From IMG/VR virus record IMGVR_UViG_3300005573_000201, positions 1-35,245 of that record: a stretch of 35,245 bases of DNA; one strand, given 5' to 3'. Source of the stretch: a virus. Taxonomy: Duplodnaviria; Caudoviricetes. This document shows positions 10,906 to 28,289 of the stretch, one piece after another; the first letter of the stretch is position 1; each line of letters starts with the position of its first letter. The notes beneath the pieces were generated by a model. It searched no databases and was not told the DNA's origin. It saw only the letters and a list, made by a program, of their open reading frames with translations. A program made the position numbers and the translations under genes.

Positions 10906-11174
10906 GACGATGGGTTGTGATCGGGTTGATCGGGATGGTGGGATGTTCTCCGGTGTACATCCCTCAGAAAGTGATGGTCGAAGTTCCGGTTTATTGCAAG
11001 GCCCCGGTCGTTCCGCCCTTTATCAATCACATTTCTTCGACGATCCCGAAGACGGAGAAGGAGCAGGAGGTATTGGCCTCCCAGATTGTTGCAACACTAT
11101 GGGAAGCGACGGAACAAAACAAGGAACTCCGACAGGCTCTCACCGCCTGCCAGAATCCCAAAGAGAGAAAGTGA
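10902..11174 (+). CDS. o-spanin lipoprotein (Rz1-like)
   Basis: MRRWVVIGLIGMVG|C lipobox, Pro-rich segment and C-terminal ALTAC; ATGA overlap with the i-spanin. Confidence 0.75.
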   Translation: MRRWVVIGLIGMVGCSPVYIPQKVMVEVPVYCKAPVVPPFINHISSTIPKTEKEQEVLASQIVATLWEATEQNKELRQALTACQNPKERK

Positions 11175-11197
11175 AAAGGGGAGGCCGAAGCCTCCCT
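11174..11197 (-). terminator. Rho-independent terminator ending the TasA-TIGR transcript
   Basis: Minus strand GGGAGGC-TTCG-GCCTCCC followed by CTTTT (cUUCGg tetraloop), ~8 nt after the last array unit. Confidence 0.75.
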
Positions 11198-11205
11198 GTG
11201 AAATA

Positions 11206-11531
11206 CGCTGTGATTTACTGGGTTTCTTAAACGAATTGACTCGCTCCGAATTTCTGGGTTTCTCTGGCGGTGTGACTCGCTCGAACCGTTTGGGTTTCTT
11301 CCCCTCCATGACTCACTCGGGACACTTGGGTTTCTCCGGACTTCTGACCCGCTTGCACGCGCTGGGTTTCTAGGCACTTGTGGCTCGCTCTGCCGCATTG
11401 GGTTTCTGGCGATTGATGGCTCGCTTGTTGTACTTGGGTTTCTTAGTTTCCATGACTCGCTAGGGACATCTGGGTTTCTGATTTGCCTGTGACTCGCTCC
11501 GTATACCTTGGGTTTCTCTGGGCTTTTGACC
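11206..11531 (-). ncRNA. TIGR array (tandem interspaced guide RNAs), 9 units of 36 nt
   Basis: Minus strand repeats RGYCA-N9-AGAAACCCA-N9-AGYG. The invariant TGGGTTTCT (+) starts at 11219, 11255, 11291, 11327, 11363, 11399, 11435, 11471 and 11509. All spacers are unique; the array directly follows a Nop-domain gene. Confidence 0.9.
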
Positions 11532-11537
11532 CCTCCC

Positions 11538-12437
11538 TCATCCCTCCGTTCCCGTTCCGTGATTGTAACCCAGTTTCCCCTCGGAATAGGGAACGCTCTG
11601 GGGGAATCCTTCCAGTTTCCGCCATTCCCGGTGAAGATCCACAAGGAATTGTTTGATCATATACCGGATGGAACGGTTGTGGATATGAAGCTTCGACAGC
11701 CCAGCGCAATCCGGACGGTGCGTGAGCCGATTCTTGTAGTCGTTATAGATCTTGGCGTAGACTCCCTTCCCACCGACCCGCAGGAACGATGATCCCGCCA
11801 CACCAATCAGCTTCGTTTTCAGGAATGGGTTGAACGTGATGGAATCCCGCTCGGCTTCTTCACCATCCTTGTTGACATAGGACTTCCTGACGAGGCTTTC
11901 TTTCTTGCGAGACCGTCCGACATTCTTTCCGTCCTCAGTGTTTACGGTGTCCAGCCCGGCATACTTCCAGAGGGAAGACGGATATTTTGCCTTTGAGATA
12001 TCGATCTCGGAAATGATGATACCCGCCAGCGCCGGACCGATTCCCTTGACCCCCTTGAGGTACTTCGTCCATACCGTGAACTCCATGAGGGACTTTTCGA
12101 GGAGAGCGAACTGTTGCTCTTCCATCTCCTCCATCTGAACATATTGATCGAAGAGGGCCAAGAACGAATACTCTGATATCAGTCCGACTGCAACGAATTT
12201 CTTTGGTGTCGGGATGATCTGCAAGCCGTCCATGATCTTCCGGTAGTCCTTCCGGAGCCTGTCCAGGTATTTCTTGTCCTCCTTGTCCAATGCTTCGGAT
12301 TCCGGAACGGATGGTTCGTTCCCCATGTCGCGGGCCTTTATGTTGGCAACGATCCGGTTTCCCATCTGGATTCGGAGTTTTTGCAGATCGTATACGCCAC
12401 GAACCTGTGTTCTGAGAGTTTCTTTCCGGAAGTCCAT
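11538..12437 (-). CDS. tasA: TIGR-associated protein TasA (Nop / IS110-related RNA-binding domain, no nuclease domain)
   Basis: 299 aa: coiled coil (YDLQKLRIQMGNRI), HhH LKGVKGIGPALAGIIISEI, SSLWKYAGL, FNPFLKT, HIHNRSIRYMIKQFLVDL. No N-terminal RuvC DEDD and no HNH; stop lies 6 nt from the array. Confidence 0.85.
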   Translation of the reverse strand: MDFRKETLRTQVRGVYDLQKLRIQMGNRIVANIKARDMGNEPSVPESEALDKEDKKYLDRLRKDYRKIMDGLQIIPTPKKFVAVGLISEYSFLALFDQYVQMEEMEEQQFALLEKSLMEFTVWTKYLKGVKGIGPALAGIIISEIDISKAKYPSSLWKYAGLDTVNTEDGKNVGRSRKKESLVRKSYVNKDGEEAERDSITFNPFLKTKLIGVAGSSFLRVGGKGVYAKIYNDYKNRLTHRPDCAGLSKLHIHNRSIRYMIKQFLVDLHREWRKLEGFPQSVPYSEGKLGYNHGTGTEG

Positions 12438-12554
12438 AAATCCCCCTTCTAAGGTTCAATCCTGACTCGATATGTCGATGGCATAACCACTTCATCACGA
12501 TATGTCGATTTTTCCGGTTCAAATGGATACGTCCTTCGATAATCTCCGTAGTCT

Positions 12555-15446: not shown

Positions 15447-15632
15447 TCACCTCCTTGGATCTCTATTAGTATTCTCCTGTGGCCGTGACCATGACCATGA
15501 CGATACACAGGACTGTGACCATGACGATACCCAGGACTGTGACCATGACCATAACCGGGACCGTGAAAATGACCGTGTCCCTGACCGGGAAAATGACCGT
15601 TCAAACCCCATTCTCAACATTGCTGCCGTCAT
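15447..15632 (-). CDS. Ser/Arg/Trp-rich low-complexity peptide, copy 3
   Basis: RBS GGAGG; MTAAMLRMGFERS followed by SR/SW dipeptides (TCAYGG hexamers). Confidence 0.65.
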   Translation of the reverse strand: MTAAMLRMGFERSFSRSGTRSFSRSRLWSWSQSWVSSWSQSCVSSWSWSRPQENTNRDPRR

Positions 15633-15847
15633 TTAAGTCCTCCCGGGAGCCATGACTGGGACCGTGGTCGTTCCCATGACCGTGACCACCACAATGACCC
15701 TGACCGGGACCCTGACCGGGACCGGGACTGTGACCATGACCGTGACCCTGTATATGACTGCGTATATGACCTTAAAAATGACCGGGATCGTGATCGTGGT
15801 CGTGACCGGGATTTATCAAATCCTCTTCTCAACATTCCCGCCGTCAT
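15629..15847 (-). CDS. Ser/Arg/Trp-rich low-complexity peptide, copy 2
   Basis: RBS GAGG; MTAGMLRRGFDKS followed by RS repeats; ATGA coupling to copy 3. Confidence 0.65.
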   Translation of the reverse strand: MTAGMLRRGFDKSRSRPRSRSRSFLRSYTQSYTGSRSWSQSRSRSGSRSGSLWWSRSWERPRSQSWLPGGLK

Positions 15848-15855
15848 TTAAGTCC

Positions 15856-16068
15856 TCACGGGAGCCGTGACCGTGAAAATGATCCCATCCGATTACCTTC
15901 CTGTAAAAATGTCCCTGACCATGAGTATGGACCTGGATTTGAACGTGAAAATGACCATGACCCTGACCTTGGCCGTGAAAAAGATCGTGACAATAACCTT
16001 GGTCGTGGCCATATACATGAAAATGATTCTGCTCGTTCAAACCCCATCCTAAACGTTGCTGCCGTCAT
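15856..16068 (-). CDS. Ser/Arg/Trp-rich low-complexity peptide, copy 1
   Basis: RBS GGGGAG; MTAATFRMGFERA followed by a degenerate RS/SW tract. Confidence 0.6.
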   Translation of the reverse strand: MTAATFRMGFERAESFSCIWPRPRLLSRSFSRPRSGSWSFSRSNPGPYSWSGTFLQEGNRMGSFSRSRLP

Positions 16069-16533: not shown

Positions 16534-16725
16534 TTAGCCGTAGCCTGAGCCGTAGCCGTCGCCGTCGCCGGAGCCGGAGCCGTAGCCTGAGCCGTAGCCG
16601 TCGCCGGAGCCGGAGCCGTAGCCTGAGCCTGAGCCGTAGCCGCCTCCATCGCCGTCGCCGGAGCCGGAGCCGTCGCCGGAGCCGTAGCCGTCGCCGGAGC
16701 CGTAGCCGTAGACTACGCTTCCCAT
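16534..16725 (-). CDS. Gly/Tyr/Ser/Asp low-complexity peptide (63 aa)
   Basis: ATG 16725 overlaps the end of the upstream gene; MGSVVYGYGSGDGYGSGDGSG...GYG built from GGC-TAC/TCC/GAC hexamers. Confidence 0.65.
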   Translation of the reverse strand: MGSVVYGYGSGDGYGSGDGSGSGDGDGGGYGSGSGYGSGSGDGYGSGYGSGSGDGDGYGSGYG

Positions 16726-17000
16726 ACCGGCACCCCTTCGATGCTTTTCCGGGCCTTTTCGGAGACCGGAAGCAGCTCTATCGCCTGTAGCAGAGTTACT
16801 TCCGGTACGGCCACCGGGAACTTGCATGACTTTGGCTTTTTCGTTCCAGACACCGACAGCTCGGACAGAGAGGCCGCACCGTCCCAATACCAAAGTCTCC
16901 GTGCGTCGGTTAATACCACTTCCTGCCCGTCCCGTGATTTGAGAGTCCCTGCAAAAACTCCCGCCGAATAAGTCCGGCAGATGATGTACGATCCGATCAT
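16713..17000 (-). CDS. DUF6948-like Sm/SH3-fold phage protein
   Basis: RBS AAGGAGG + ATG 17000; IICRTYSAGVFAGTL...VVLTDARRLWYWDGAASLSELS; first gene of the leftward operon. Confidence 0.7.
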   Translation of the reverse strand: MIGSYIICRTYSAGVFAGTLKSRDGQEVVLTDARRLWYWDGAASLSELSVSGTKKPKSCKFPVAVPEVTLLQAIELLPVSEKARKSIEGVPVWEA

Positions 17001-17135
17001 CCGTTCCTCCTTGTTTGAGTAGGTAACAAAATCCATTACAAGCCATTCCCTTATCAGCTCCGTCTCCCCGCCGGGTCCCTCCATCCCGACTTTATGGACA
17101 CCTCCCGAGAGGGGGGTGATTGGCTGAACGGGATC

Positions 17136-17240: not shown

Positions 17241-17456
17241 ATGAAAAAAAAGACAATCGACCAGGTCATCGCATTCTTTGGAACCCAATCTGAGCTTGGA
17301 AAAAAGCTTGGAGTGACCCAGCAGTCAATCCGGCATTGGATCACGCGCGGGCATATTCCGATTCGCCGGGCTCTCCAGATCGAGGAGATCAGCGGGGGAA
17401 AGATCAGGCTTAAGGATATTTTGCACCTGACCAACAGGATTTGGAGAAAAGAATAA
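17241..17456 (+). CDS. cro: Cro-like HTH regulator (YdaS/Cro family)
   Basis: ATG 17241 after GGAGGG; FFGTQSELGKKLGVTQQSIRHW...IPIRRALQIEEISGGKI. Confidence 0.85.
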   Translation: MKKKTIDQVIAFFGTQSELGKKLGVTQQSIRHWITRGHIPIRRALQIEEISGGKIRLKDILHLTNRIWRKE

Positions 17457-18256
17457 TGGAAAAACGGATATGTCTTGTGTCCTGTTCAGGAGGAAAGGAT
17501 TCCACCGCTACCCTTCTTCTTGCCCTTGAAAAAATGGAGAATGTTGAGGCAGTTTTTGCGGATACAGGAAATGAGCATCGATTAACCTATGAATATCTCG
17601 ATTATTTGGAACAAAAACTCAAGATTCGTATTCGGAGAATAAAGGCCGATTTTTCAAAGAAGATCGAGCGTCATCATCAATACATAAGATTTTGCACAGA
17701 AGAGTTGAAGATTAAACCATTAACAGAATATGCCTTGTCTCTCGTGGAAAAAGGATGGTTTGTGGAATCATGGCAAGGTGTCAGGGCTGAGGAATCTCCC
17801 AGTCGGGCGAATCTTCCTGAAAGGGAGATGCTAGCGGATGGGATTGAAGCTGTCCGTCCCATCCATAAATGGTCAGTCAAGCAAGTTTTCGATTACCACA
17901 GGGAAAAAGGGATCGAGCCGAATCCTCTCTATAAAATGGGAATGAAACGTGTCGGATGTATGCCTTGCATTCACTCCAGAAAACAGGAACTTGCTGAGAT
18001 TGCATTACGATTCCCGGAAGTGATTGATCGGATCGAATCATGGGAGAAACATGTCGGTCAGGTTTCAAAACGGGATTTTTCTACATTTTTTCCGGCTGAG
18101 GGACACACGAATAAAGAAGCCTATGAATCAGGAAACATTAGAAAAGTTGTTCAATGGGCAAAAGGGGCTGAGCCTGTATTTTTCAAGGATTTTTGGAAAA
18201 GCGAAGAGGACTTGAGTAAAAATTCCTGCTCTTCTGAATACGGGCTTTGTGAGTGA
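17456..18256 (+). CDS. PAPS reductase-family (adenine nucleotide alpha-hydrolase) protein
   Basis: SGGKDS PP-loop, FADTGNE, CTEELKIKP, GVRAEES.SRA, NPLY..GMKRVGCMPC and C-terminal CSSEYGLCE. Confidence 0.85.
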   Translation: MEKRICLVSCSGGKDSTATLLLALEKMENVEAVFADTGNEHRLTYEYLDYLEQKLKIRIRRIKADFSKKIERHHQYIRFCTEELKIKPLTEYALSLVEKGWFVESWQGVRAEESPSRANLPEREMLADGIEAVRPIHKWSVKQVFDYHREKGIEPNPLYKMGMKRVGCMPCIHSRKQELAEIALRFPEVIDRIESWEKHVGQVSKRDFSTFFPAEGHTNKEAYESGNIRKVVQWAKGAEPVFFKDFWKSEEDLSKNSCSSEYGLCE

Positions 18257-21249: not shown

Positions 21250-22233
21250 ATGAAACATCCATCTTTCCAATTTTATCCATCCGACTGGCTTTCCGATACC
21301 AAACTAAGATCATGTTCCATGGAAGCGCGTGGCCTTGCTATCGATCTTTTTTGCATCATGCACGACCACGATCCCTATGGACACTGCCCGAACTCTATCC
21401 CGACATTAGCCCGACTTCTCAGGGAAGATCCCCGGAAGTTGCGCCGACTTCTCGATGAACTCCTGGTCCATAAAGTGATAAAACAATCCGAAGATCGACC
21501 TGAATTCTTCTATAGTTCCCGAATGATTCGTGACGAAGCCATCAGGGCAAAAAGACGTTCAAATGGAAAGTTGGGGGGGAATCCAAAATTAAAAGTTGAC
21601 CCAACTTCTCCCGAACATCTCCCGAACATCTCGCCAACATCTCGCCAACATCTCGCCAACATCTCGCCAACATCTCCCGAAGATCTGGAGAACATCTTTA
21701 AGACTTCTCCCGAACATCTCGCCGACATCTCCATAACATCTCAACGAACTCGAAGTGAAGAAATAAGGCATGACAATGAGTTAAGCGAAAATGAGGTTAA
21801 CCACTTGGATAACGCATTGTCGAAAGATAGGTTAACCCTTGAGGAAGAATCTTGTACCCCCCCTTCTTCTTCTTCTTCATCTTCATCTTCAAAAAAAAGA
21901 AATAAAACCATTGTCGAAATGCCGGAAGAATCGGCTTTCGACTTGCCGGCACTCTGGAAAGAATTATGTCCGGATCTACCGCAAGTTCGAGAGATCACTC
22001 CAAAACGACGCCAAAAGATCCGGTCCAGGATCAAGGAACATCACTCAATCGATTGGTGGAAGGATCTATTTGCGATGATCAGCGGTATTCCCTTCCTGAA
22101 CGGTGAAAACAAAACAGGATGGAGAGCCAGTTTCGATTGGGTGATTGAAAATCCTGACAACGCAATCAAGGTGCTGGAAGGGAAATACGCATCAAAGGAA
22201 GATCACACCGTGAGTTCCAATTCTGGATGGTAG
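21250..22233 (+). CDS. Phage replication initiator / replisome organizer (lambda O-like architecture)
   Basis: ATG 21250 after GGAGGT; N-terminal PSFQFYPSDWLSD...CSMEARG; central iteron and Ser-rich linker; C-terminal GENKTGWRASFDW...KVLEGKY. Confidence 0.85.
   Translation: MKHPSFQFYPSDWLSDTKLRSCSMEARGLAIDLFCIMHDHDPYGHCPNSIPTLARLLREDPRKLRRLLDELLVHKVIKQSEDRPEFFYSSRMIRDEAIRAKRRSNGKLGGNPKLKVDPTSPEHLPNISPTSRQHLANISPTSPEDLENIFKTSPEHLADISITSQRTRSEEIRHDNELSENEVNHLDNALSKDRLTLEEESCTPPSSSSSSSSSKKRNKTIVEMPEESAFDLPALWKELCPDLPQVREITPKRRQKIRSRIKEHHSIDWWKDLFAMISGIPFLNGENKTGWRASFDWVIENPDNAIKVLEGKYASKEDHTVSSNSGW
21601..21743 (+). repeat. 11-bp tandem repeat array (~13 copies), probable replication iterons
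   Basis: Units of consensus C(C/G)AACATCTC(G/C) with 11-nt period inside the initiator gene; followed by GGTTAACC x2 and a TCTTCT/A-rich tract (~21865-21910). Confidence 0.8.
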
Positions 22234-23686: not shown

Positions 23687-24430
23687 GTGGAAATTCCGCT
23701 CCTCCGCTACAAGTATGCTATGGAAAGAATCTTCGGATTCGTTCTCTCCTTCTTCTGGGCCCATGTCCGAATCCTCACCAAACATCCCGGCATGAGACCC
23801 TGGGTCTCCTCCTGGATCAGCCGAATCAGAAAGGTCTATGGTCTCGGGAAAGAGCCTGAAAACCGGATCAATAACCTCGATGCTCTTGGGTCGAATCTTG
23901 CCTTCATGAAGCAGGAGGCCGAAAAAGACCTTCACCAGAGCCTTCCTTCCCCGGCCATAAAAGCGGTGAAGAGTCTCACCCGGCACCGGGAGGGGCTCAC
24001 TCTCTTCCTCGATCTCCCGGAGGTCCCTCTCAACAACAATGCGACCGGACGGGATCTCCGGCGCGAGGTCGTGGGGCGAAAGACCTTCCATGGAGCCGGC
24101 TCCCTCTGGTCCGCCAATATCGCCTCCTGGATCACTACGATCTTTGGGCACATGGTCGAAAAACGGGATCAACATTCACACCTCCCTCACCGATTATCTC
24201 ACTGTATGCGCCGCGTTGGGCACGGTCCCCGACAATCTCTCTCCGTGGCTCCCCTGGTCCATGGACTGGGACCGGAAGGCTTTTCTCTCCCGGCCAACGT
24301 CCGACGACACCTCCTGATCCCCTCCCGTTCCCCTGATCGTCCGGTCTCGTTACATTGCCCTCCGAGGAAGGCTTCCCTTGCGTCCTTCGTCTCCCCCCCC
24401 CATATCCCTCCCAGAAGATCGAAAACTTAC
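23687..24430 (+). mobile_element. IS66-family remnant: frameshifted 3' part of the TnpC transposase plus probable right end
   Basis: LTLFLDLPEVPLNNNATGRDLRREVVGRKTFHGAGS, a frameshift near 24145, then TWSKNGINIHTSLTDYL...LSPWLPW* (24317). ...AAACTTAC at 24423-24430 fits a GTAA-type terminus; no tnpA/tnpB or left end. Confidence 0.75.
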
Positions 24431-24526
24431 GAGCCTTCCGTAATTTTTGAAAGCATGAATGACCCTCTGGAAAGGCTTCAAGAAAAAAAAGGGGAGCTCG
24501 AATGCTCCCGGTCATATCAATCGTGA

Positions 24527-28047: not shown

Positions 28048-28085
28048 GGGGGGAGAGAAAAAAATAAACAAGAAGTGAGGTAAAA

Positions 28086-28289
28086 ATGATCCACGATCCC
28101 CATTGCCCCGCTCCGGAGATGTGTTCGGAATGCGGGGAGTTTCCGGTAGCAGACGATCACGACTGCATGGACTACCCGGTATGTCTGGACCCTTTCATCT
28201 TGGGGAGCAGCGCCATCCTGTGGGGCCTGATTATTGTCATTGGGTGGTCCCTGTGGACGGCGCTGAAATACGGAGGGTGGGTGCGATGA
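28086..28289 (+). CDS. Small Cys/His-rich membrane protein
   Basis: RBS GAGGT; HDPHC...CSEC...HDC followed by one TM helix. Confidence 0.6.
   Translation: MIHDPHCPAPEMCSECGEFPVADDHDCMDYPVCLDPFILGSSAILWGLIIVIGWSLWTALKYGGWVR

What the first reader, a model, noticed from the sequence alone, without database searches (positions are those of the whole stretch)
11174..12437. Complete TIGR-TasA RNA-guided system (dual-repeat 36-nt guide array plus nuclease-less Nop protein)
Seen: nine units of edge(AGYCA)-9 nt-loop(AGAAACCCA)-9 nt-edge(AGCG), with exact 36-nt periodicity over eight loop repeats, starting 6 nt after the stop of a Nop/IS110-like gene and closed by a UUCG terminator. Established: this is the architecture of the recently described TIGR-Tas systems, in which 36-nt tigRNAs with two 9-nt spacers direct PAM-independent binding to both DNA strands; they are related to IS110 and box C/D snoRNPs. 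This protein has no RuvC or HNH, so it is the TasA class, whose biological role is essentially unresolved. Standard pipelines would call it an IS110 transposase and miss the array.
Basis: partly seen in the sequence, partly recalled or inferred. Interest (0 to 1): 0.93.

Follow-up and report, generated by a model that had tools for sequence, protein, structure and literature searches.

The report
Phage RNA-guided DNA clamp (TIGR-TasA)
A hot-spring phage carries nine short guide units behind a protein of the recently described TIGR-TasA kind that has no DNA-cutting domain and likely sits on matching DNA to switch genes off; the system is real but one of thousands now catalogued, and its natural targets, possibly host genes, remain unproven.

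Summary
Confirmed. The minus strand holds a 299-aa solo-Nop Tas gene, a nine-unit dual-repeat TIGR array 6 nt behind it and a terminator. NCBIfam names the protein TIGR-Tas above its cut-off, its best fold matches are TasR/TasH, it has no RuvC or HNH domain, and it keeps the Tyr and (two residues shifted) His of the guide-processing dyad. It is a new member of a known family: a 91%-identical sister is already in the discovery paper's Table S1, and TasA repression in E. coli has been reported. No target of the window's guides was found; the host is unknown. Three leads came from relatives. (1) The last bases of spacers A and B are Watson-Crick complementary beyond chance in two separate array sets (194 of 448 against 129; 196 of 619 against 149), where the discovery paper saw no covariation; the window's own nine units do not show it. 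(2) A Sporomusa prophage relative has 3 of 17 guides matching its host chromosome at 17/18 (0.35 expected), one in the conserved flgB leader; 0 of 3 guides replicated in a second host. (3) Sister phages share the protein but hardly any guides.

The parts
11538..12437 (-). tasA: 299-aa solo-Nop TIGR-associated protein (coiled coil plus Nop domain, C-terminal Tyr284/His293 loop)
   Evidence: in-frame stop 7 codons upstream of the ATG, so no N-terminal nuclease
12442..12449 (-). ribosome-binding-site-like purine run, overlapping the stop of the upstream 99-aa ORF
   Evidence: seen in the sequence; function inferred
11206..11531 (-). [quoted passage not shown]
11495..11531 (-). unit 1 (37 nt, 10-nt spacer B)
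11458..11494 (-). unit 2 (37 nt, 10-nt spacer A)
11206..11457 (-). units 3-9, 36 nt each (starts 11457, 11421, 11385, 11349, 11313, 11277, 11241)
11170..11196 (-). intrinsic-terminator-like hairpin (11196-11179, UUCG loop) with U tract, closing the array where it meets the converging lysis genes
   Evidence: a like hairpin closes the sister arrays L001 and L010
12449..14908 (-). context, not part of the system: co-oriented YqaJ exonuclease, RecT and two small ORFs, the likely early operon that tasA ends
   Evidence: co-transcription inferred

Best explanation
A tailed phage carries a nuclease-less TIGR protein (TasA) with a nine-unit guide array directly behind it; the protein likely cuts the array transcript into 36-37-nt two-spacer guides and would clamp onto 18-bp DNA sites outside the phage's own genome, probably on the host chromosome, blocking transcription without cutting. 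Shown here: gene, array, terminator, family, absence of a nuclease domain, absence of self-targets. Taken from published relatives: processing inside the edge repeat, dimer binding one guide, spacer A pairing with one strand and spacer B with the other, no PAM, repression by roadblock. Inferred: early expression at the end of the YqaJ-RecT operon; self-processing by Tyr284/His293; host genes as the main target class. My odds: TIGR-TasA membership 0.97; binds DNA and represses 0.8; host chromosome rather than rival elements as main target about 0.5.
For: NCBIfam TIGR_Tas 125.1 bits over cut-off 100, the only family at E<=1e-8. The only two PDB sequence hits are TaTasR (9mty) and SpTasH. AlphaFold model pLDDT 87.7 with a helical N-terminus; the top ten Foldseek rows are TasR/TasH (E 1e-8 to 8e-7, TM 0.52-0.59), IS110 recombinases come at E>=0.0035, TM about 0.4. 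No HNH or RuvC Pfam hit in 121 of 121 aligned proteins. Tyr284 aligns with catalytic SpTasH Tyr289; Tyr284 and His293 are invariant in 121 of 121. Edge repeats can form both published pairs in 9 of 9 units. Arrays were parsed beside 93 of 112 related loci. No site with 2 or fewer mismatches for any window guide in the window outside the array. A TasA represses reporter and chromosomal genes in E. coli (bioRxiv 10.64898/2026.09.09.750476). In a Sporomusa aerivorans prophage (TasA 42% identical), 3 of 17 guides match the host chromosome at 17 of 18 bases in the published geometry within 2.8 of 6.5 Mb scanned, against 0.35 expected from 1502 foreign guides (P about 0.005). One site lies 65-82 bp upstream of flgB, is the only such site in the whole genome for that guide, and is the conserved block of that leader in one relative.
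Against: No expression, processing or binding data for this locus. No target was found for any of the nine window guides, and the host was not identified. His293 sits two residues beyond the position that aligns with SpTasH His296. The Sporomusa result is one genome; one of its three sites was known before the region was chosen (without it 2 against 0.32, P about 0.04); one of seven control geometries gave 2 hits; all three sites carry a mismatch, two at spacer A position 5. Three guides of a second prophage-like locus found 0 sites in its own and 7 related genomes. Predicted sites of 1067 guides show no excess of sigma-70-type hexamers. The repression shown in print is for reprogrammed guides in E. 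coli.
Confidence: 0.6

Rival explanations
1. Same binding and roadblock mechanism, but aimed at competing phages or plasmids rather than at the host chromosome.
For: Proposed in the discovery paper. Fast guide turnover between sister phages fits an arms race: no whole unit is shared between the window and L001 or L010. One L001 guide matches the window's own array at 11328 with 2 mismatches in 18.
Against: 68 guides of the three sister arrays gave no exact and no excess near match in the window, G001, L005 and L010 in any geometry. 918 guides show no excess of matches to TIGR arrays or tas loci in 534 kb. Only a small part of the local virome could be searched, so this is weak.
Confidence: 0.25
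2. TasA acts on the phage's own genome, as a lifecycle regulator or as an RNA-guided DNA-bending aid for integration or recombination.
For: Raised in the discovery paper; tasA lies behind RecT and YqaJ here and beside a CI-like repressor in the Sporomusa prophage.
Against: No self-site within 2 mismatches in the 35-kb contig; none of the Sporomusa near-perfect sites lies near its prophage. The contig may be incomplete, and no integrase was seen among the 41 ORFs scanned.
Confidence: 0.07
3. A decayed or silent cassette carried along by recombination.
For: Two units are 37 nt; no RNA evidence was available.
Against: Intact ORF with all invariant residues, nine perfect loop repeats, intact terminator, and intact sister cassettes in different phage backgrounds.
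Confidence: 0.06
4. An IS110 transposon with a bridge RNA.
For: Pfam Transposase_20 and PHROGs 'transposase' hits.
Against: No DEDD domain in sequence or model, no NCBIfam IS110 hit at E<=1e-8, folds rank TIGR far above IS110, and the RNA is a nine-unit array.
Confidence: 0.02

Closest known systems
Dual-repeat TIGR-TasA (FpTasA of Flavonifractor plautii; Faure et al. 2025, PMC12045711)
   Same: Solo-Nop Tas, array of alternating 9-nt edge and loop repeats with 9-nt spacers, truncated end repeats, terminator, phage setting. The sister protein of L001/L006 is itself a row of Table S1, in a 50% cluster that appears 89 times in the stored part.
   Different: New sequence: the window's exact protein was not among the three rows that hold the peptide searched (table cut when stored). 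Box D reads AG rather than the UG of TaTasR; two units are 37 nt.
TaTasR (PDB 9MTY) and SpTasH (PDB 9W02-9W04, 21KL)
   Same: Coiled coil plus Nop fold, TM 0.52-0.59; C-terminal Tyr/His loop as in SpTasH.
   Different: No RuvC or HNH domain; His is offset by two residues.
MbTasA and dead TasR repressors (bioRxiv 10.64898/2026.09.09.750476)
   Same: Nuclease-less Tas that binds DNA and represses transcription: the mechanism proposed here.
   Different: Tested with reprogrammed guides in E. coli; the paper centres on stem-loop systems and states that natural targets cannot yet be determined.
TldR, phage-encoded nuclease-dead TnpB repressors of flagellar genes (bioRxiv 10.1101/2023.11.30.569447, abstract seen)
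   Same: Works like it if the host-target reading holds: a prophage RNA-guided repressor aimed at a conserved promoter region of flagellar genes.
   Different: Unrelated protein family (TnpB, not Nop); TIGR-TasA is multiplexed with split guides. Not a member.
IS110 bridge-RNA recombinases and box C/D snoRNPs
   Same: Nop domain and box C/D-anchored two-spacer RNA (weak fold matches).
   Different: No DEDD recombinase module, no fibrillarin or L7Ae partner; arrayed guides.

Membership tests
TIGR-Tas | Tas protein with coiled coil and Nop domain | tested here: met
   NCBIfam NF052498 125.1 bits over cut-off 100; fold matches; PDB sequence hits
TIGR-Tas, dual-repeat | Adjacent array of alternating edge and loop repeats with two 9-nt spacers per 36-nt unit | tested here: met
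   nine units, seven of 36 nt and two of 37 nt
TIGR-Tas, dual-repeat | [quoted passage not shown] | tested here: met
   both repeats start AG and end YCA; pairs 2:7 and 3:6 possible in 9 of 9 units; covarying in 543 and 547 of 550 relative units (partly circular, the parser used these motifs)
TIGR-Tas, dual-repeat | Array starts and ends with truncated edge repeats and is followed by an intrinsic terminator | tested here: met
TIGR-Tas, dual-repeat | C-terminal Tyr/His dyad for guide processing | tested here: inconclusive
   Tyr284 aligns with SpTasH Tyr289; invariant His293 is two residues past the His296 column; catalysis untested
TasA class | No N-terminal RuvC or HNH domain | tested here: met
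   in-frame stop 7 codons upstream; helix from residue 3; no nuclease Pfam in 121 of 121; longer relatives mostly carry inteins (5 of 7)
TIGR-Tas | Array transcribed and cut into 36-nt tigRNAs bound by Tas | not testable with these tools
   no RNA holder listed
TIGR-Tas | Guide-dependent, PAM-free binding to both strands of a DNA target | not testable with these tools
   needs EMSA, ChIP or reporter; indirect support only from a relative
IS110 transposons | N-terminal DEDD (RuvC-fold) domain | tested here: not met
IS110 transposons | Single bridge RNA with target and donor loops | tested here: not met
   nine-unit dual-repeat array instead
TldR | TnpB-derived protein with inactive RuvC | tested here: not met
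   Nop-fold protein; functional analogue at most

The most novel reading that the evidence does not exclude
Dual-repeat TasA cassettes are multiplexed phage CRISPRi against the host: each phage carries 9-49 swappable guides that silence host surface, motility and cell-wall genes (flgB leader, rodA end, an NlpC/P60 gene in Sporomusa), and the Watson-Crick rule between the last bases of spacers A and B is an unreported junction constraint, either a one-base overlap on the source DNA or an RNA pair at the guide's crossover, that records how guides are made.
Probability: 0.3. Interest if true: 0.8.

Novelty: new member of a known kind. Interest (0 to 1): 0.45.

Why it matters
The locus itself is one more of about 4,100 catalogued dual-repeat arrays. 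It matters as an entry to the two questions that the 2025 and 2026 papers leave open: what natural TIGR guides hit and how arrays gain guides. Its clade offers three sister arrays on a near-identical protein, a reproducible base-pair rule between the two spacers, and a cultured, harmless lysogen (Sporomusa aerivorans DSM 13326) with three named candidate sites, which makes native-host targeting directly testable. A compact hot-spring TasA may also be a heat-tolerant, PAM-free repressor (untested).

Tried and rejected
Self-targets: none within 2 mismatches in three geometries and gaps 0-2. Targets in sister phages: background only, gaps -3 to +3. 'Guides target rival TIGR arrays': 2 of 1836 spacers resemble the reversed loop repeat against 1.1 expected; no geometry stands out in 534 kb; rejected as a rule, one anecdote kept. 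'A9-B9 signal is a pooling artefact': the 'same base' signal was (arrays with 8-nt spacers), the complementary signal survived within-array shuffling. 'It is ordinary neighbour bias of DNA': junction ratio 1.40 (1.28-1.52) against 1.04 (1.01-1.06) inside spacers; rejected. '17-bp overlapped sites': 0 of 17 Sporomusa guides exact, near matches at background; no support, low power. Promoter hexamer enrichment: none (hexamers recalled). Array as a protein-coding repeat: stops inside spacers, no family for the overlapping 205-aa ORF. Expression: no RNA holder listed. Replication of host targeting: 0 of 3 guides, of about 10 in L137, in 8 genomes; 1 of 2 patterns. Only 2.8 of 6.5 Mb of G002 was scanned for all guides, so 57% is untested for most of them. 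Laid contigs at 80-85% likeness hint at variant arrays and other flanks, but repeats align to any array, so these are hints only. Polar, CRISPR-like growth of arrays: shared units between related arrays are colinear with internal gains and losses, no clear end bias by eye. Earlier notes of this scan: none on this genome or protein.

Full report
Observation. On the minus strand the loop repeat AGAAACCCA occurs nine times exactly, spaced 38 then seven times 36, and nowhere else in the window on either strand. All nine units parse with half-edge repeats and two spacers from 11531 to 11206; units 1 and 2 are 37 nt. The array starts 6 nt after the stop of ORF 11538-12437 and ends before a UUCG hairpin with a U tract. 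In 200 shuffles of the window the longest 36-periodic run of a 9-mer was 2, against 8 here.

Protein. P0001 (299 aa) scores 125.1 bits on NCBIfam TIGR_Tas (cut-off 100); Pfam and PHROGs call it transposase. Its only PDB sequence hits are TaTasR and SpTasH. The model from a 121-row alignment (pLDDT 87.7) matches TasR/TasH best, IS110 weakly, Nop5 faintly. An in-frame stop 7 codons upstream excludes an N-terminal nuclease. 2028 of 3303 candidates are relatives at E<=0.001; none of the 121 aligned has an HNH or RuvC Pfam hit; 5 of 7 longer relatives carry inteins. Tyr284 aligns with SpTasH Tyr289, and invariant His293 lies two residues past the His296 column.

Setting. The contig is a tailed phage: terminase, portal, primase-helicase, hydrolase and weak spanin matches. 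tasA ends a run of co-oriented genes that starts with YqaJ and RecT and converges on the lysis genes. Both listed sequencing runs are hot-spring DNA. The host was not identified.

Sister cassettes. L003 and L004 are identical copies and not independent. L001/L006 (91% identical protein) has 49 units, L010 (93% over the part held) has 10, with the same repeats. The window shares no whole unit with either; L001 and L010 share one, second from the terminator in both. Among 131 nine-base spacers, 4 pairs are identical and 13 differ by one base, against 0.05 and 1.3 in 500 shuffles; a four-copy family in L001 accounts for part, and several others pair a spacer A with a spacer B or have different partners, which fits duplication and half-guide reshuffling (inference). 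Outside the cassette the L001 phage shares only two short stretches with the window, and the flank behind the L010 array matches window 28068-28223, so the cassette has moved between phages and positions.

Family. The same repeat type gave 98 stretches in viral contigs, 67 with a Tas match in the DNA held. Alignment searches gave 27 genome loci and the best 80 of 202 viral matches; arrays were parsed in 93 of 112 loci examined. Cultured phage phiRSL1 has a 36%-identical protein annotated as transposase, followed by a degenerate array.

A base-pair rule between the spacers. Within-array shuffling shows one strong cell of 81: the last base of spacer A is complementary to the last base of spacer B. 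All arrays of 4 or more guides: 205 of 875 against 138.5 +/- 7.6. The 29 arrays with a variable ninth base: 194 of 448 against 129.2 +/- 7.7, maximum 156 in 5000 shuffles, 25 arrays above and 4 below expectation. A second set, after dropping 16 arrays that shared guides with the first, merging overlaps, collapsing near-duplicates and dropping groups under 4 guides: 196 of 619 against 149.4 +/- 8.2, 35 of 47 arrays above, 7 below, no signal with neighbouring units. All four Watson-Crick pairs rise in the pooled table, G-T does not, and neighbour bias inside spacers is far smaller. The window's own units do not show it (2 of 9, 2.0 expected) and L001 barely (18 of 49, 15.8 expected). Faure et al. 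write that the spacers show no obvious covariation and are unlikely to overlap; their oligo table lists a one-base-overlap substrate whose result is in a PDF I could not read, which bears on this claim. Overlap on the source DNA and an RNA-level pair both remain open; the Sporomusa sites below fit 18 bp, not 17.

Targets. Nothing for the window's guides in its own contig, the sister contigs or 534 kb of related loci. The one complete host genome in the set is Sporomusa aerivorans (L134, G002), where TasA and a 17-unit array lie between a CI-like repressor and phage replication genes. In 2.8 of 6.5 Mb, 3 of 17 guides match at 17 of 18 bases in the published geometry; mismatched spacer pairs predict 0.25 and 1502 foreign guides 0.35. 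Six control geometries gave 0 and one gave 2. One site was found first and the region was chosen to hold it; without it 2 against 0.32 (P about 0.04). The sites are the codY-flgB intergenic leader, an NlpC/P60 hydrolase gene and the 3' end of rodA. The flgB site is unique in the genome for that guide, recurs in 1 of 19 other family genomes, and is the conserved block of an otherwise diverged leader. Against this, three guides of L137 found nothing in 8 genomes, and 1067 predicted sites are not enriched for promoter hexamers. This is a lead, not a result, and it concerns a relative.

Mechanism. From the anatomy and the published relatives, the likeliest course is: early transcription through tasA and the array, cutting inside each edge repeat by the Tyr/His loop, one guide per TasA dimer, opening of an 18-bp site with spacer A on one strand and spacer B on the other, and a transcription roadblock. 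The target class is the weakest step; I put the host chromosome slightly ahead of rival elements on the Sporomusa data and the lack of phage matches.

Literature seen. PMC12045711: parts 1-4 of 12 of the text, passages, term searches in four supplements (Table S1 cut when stored; PDF unreadable). bioRxiv 10.64898/2026.09.09.750476: parts 1-4 of 7 and passages; supplements closed. PMC13421893: passages and section 16. bioRxiv 10.64898/2026.08.11.744272: part 1 of 6 and a term search. bioRxiv 10.1101/2023.11.30.569447: abstract and outline. Yang et al. 2026 (Mol Cell): not seen, cited through PMC13421893. I found no report of the spacer-end rule or of host flagellar targets in searches and the term searches; the library lacks most subscription papers. 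An earlier AI note of this scan mentions signs of a one-base overlap; I saw it after my tests and it is not independent support.

Verdict. A real, intact, ordinary member of dual-repeat TIGR-TasA. Interest 0.45: the family is recent and its biology open, the locus is one of thousands, and the added value lies in two testable leads from its clade.

Noticed in passing
L134 / G002:C1:2404041-2409907; sites at G002:C1 3916443, 4102234, 4163737: Sporomusa aerivorans prophage TasA with 17 guides; three match the host chromosome at 17 of 18 bases (flgB leader, NlpC/P60 gene, end of rodA).
   Followed up: partly
L001:3900-5670: 49-unit array, with a four-copy unit family that mostly shares a variant loop repeat, a sign of growth by unit duplication.
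   Followed up: partly
L001 units 12 and 13 against window 11292-11345: Two neighbouring L001 guides resemble the reverse complement of the window's own array (2 mismatches in 18; 3 in 17). Not a general pattern.
   Followed up: partly
L112:2432-4850 (NC_010811.2 13180-15600): Cultured jumbo phage phiRSL1: gene annotated 'transposase' is a TasA relative followed by an unannotated, degenerate TIGR array of about 1.3 kb.
   Followed up: partly
L113:2234-3300 (PP438412.1): Microcystis phage Mvi-JY20 carries a distant Tas relative with a short array and terminator behind it.
   Followed up: no
P0247-P0251: Tas relatives of 685-879 aa with intein domains, some with LAGLIDADG endonuclease.
   Followed up: no
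L010:880-1968: A TnpB-family gene lies about 250 bases behind the sister array's terminator.
   Followed up: partly
L038, L025, L041, L066 and other loci: Arrays with the same repeats but a fixed purine at the ninth position (8-nt spacers), mostly beside distant Tas proteins that match only the C-terminal part.
   Followed up: partly
window 15484-16007: Region of short tandem repeats (6-, 24- and 30-nt periods) among small minus-strand ORFs.
   Followed up: no
window 21603-21742: About 13 copies of an 11-nt repeat inside a replication-initiator gene, iteron-like origin by analogy.
   Followed up: no
window 16534-17046: Minus-strand ORF with a long 6-nt repeat run (16535-16711), beside a DUF6948 gene.
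   Followed up: no
window 17441-18256 and 23687-24526: PAPS-reductase-domain gene and a partial IS66-like domain gene in the phage.
   Followed up: no
L001:2700-2930: Three copies of a repeat of about 66 nt just upstream of the sister tasA, absent upstream of the window's gene.
   Followed up: no
L134 and L163 arrays: One guide nearly shared (2 mismatches in 18) between the Sporomusa prophage and an unrelated viral contig; AT-rich, may be chance.
   Followed up: no
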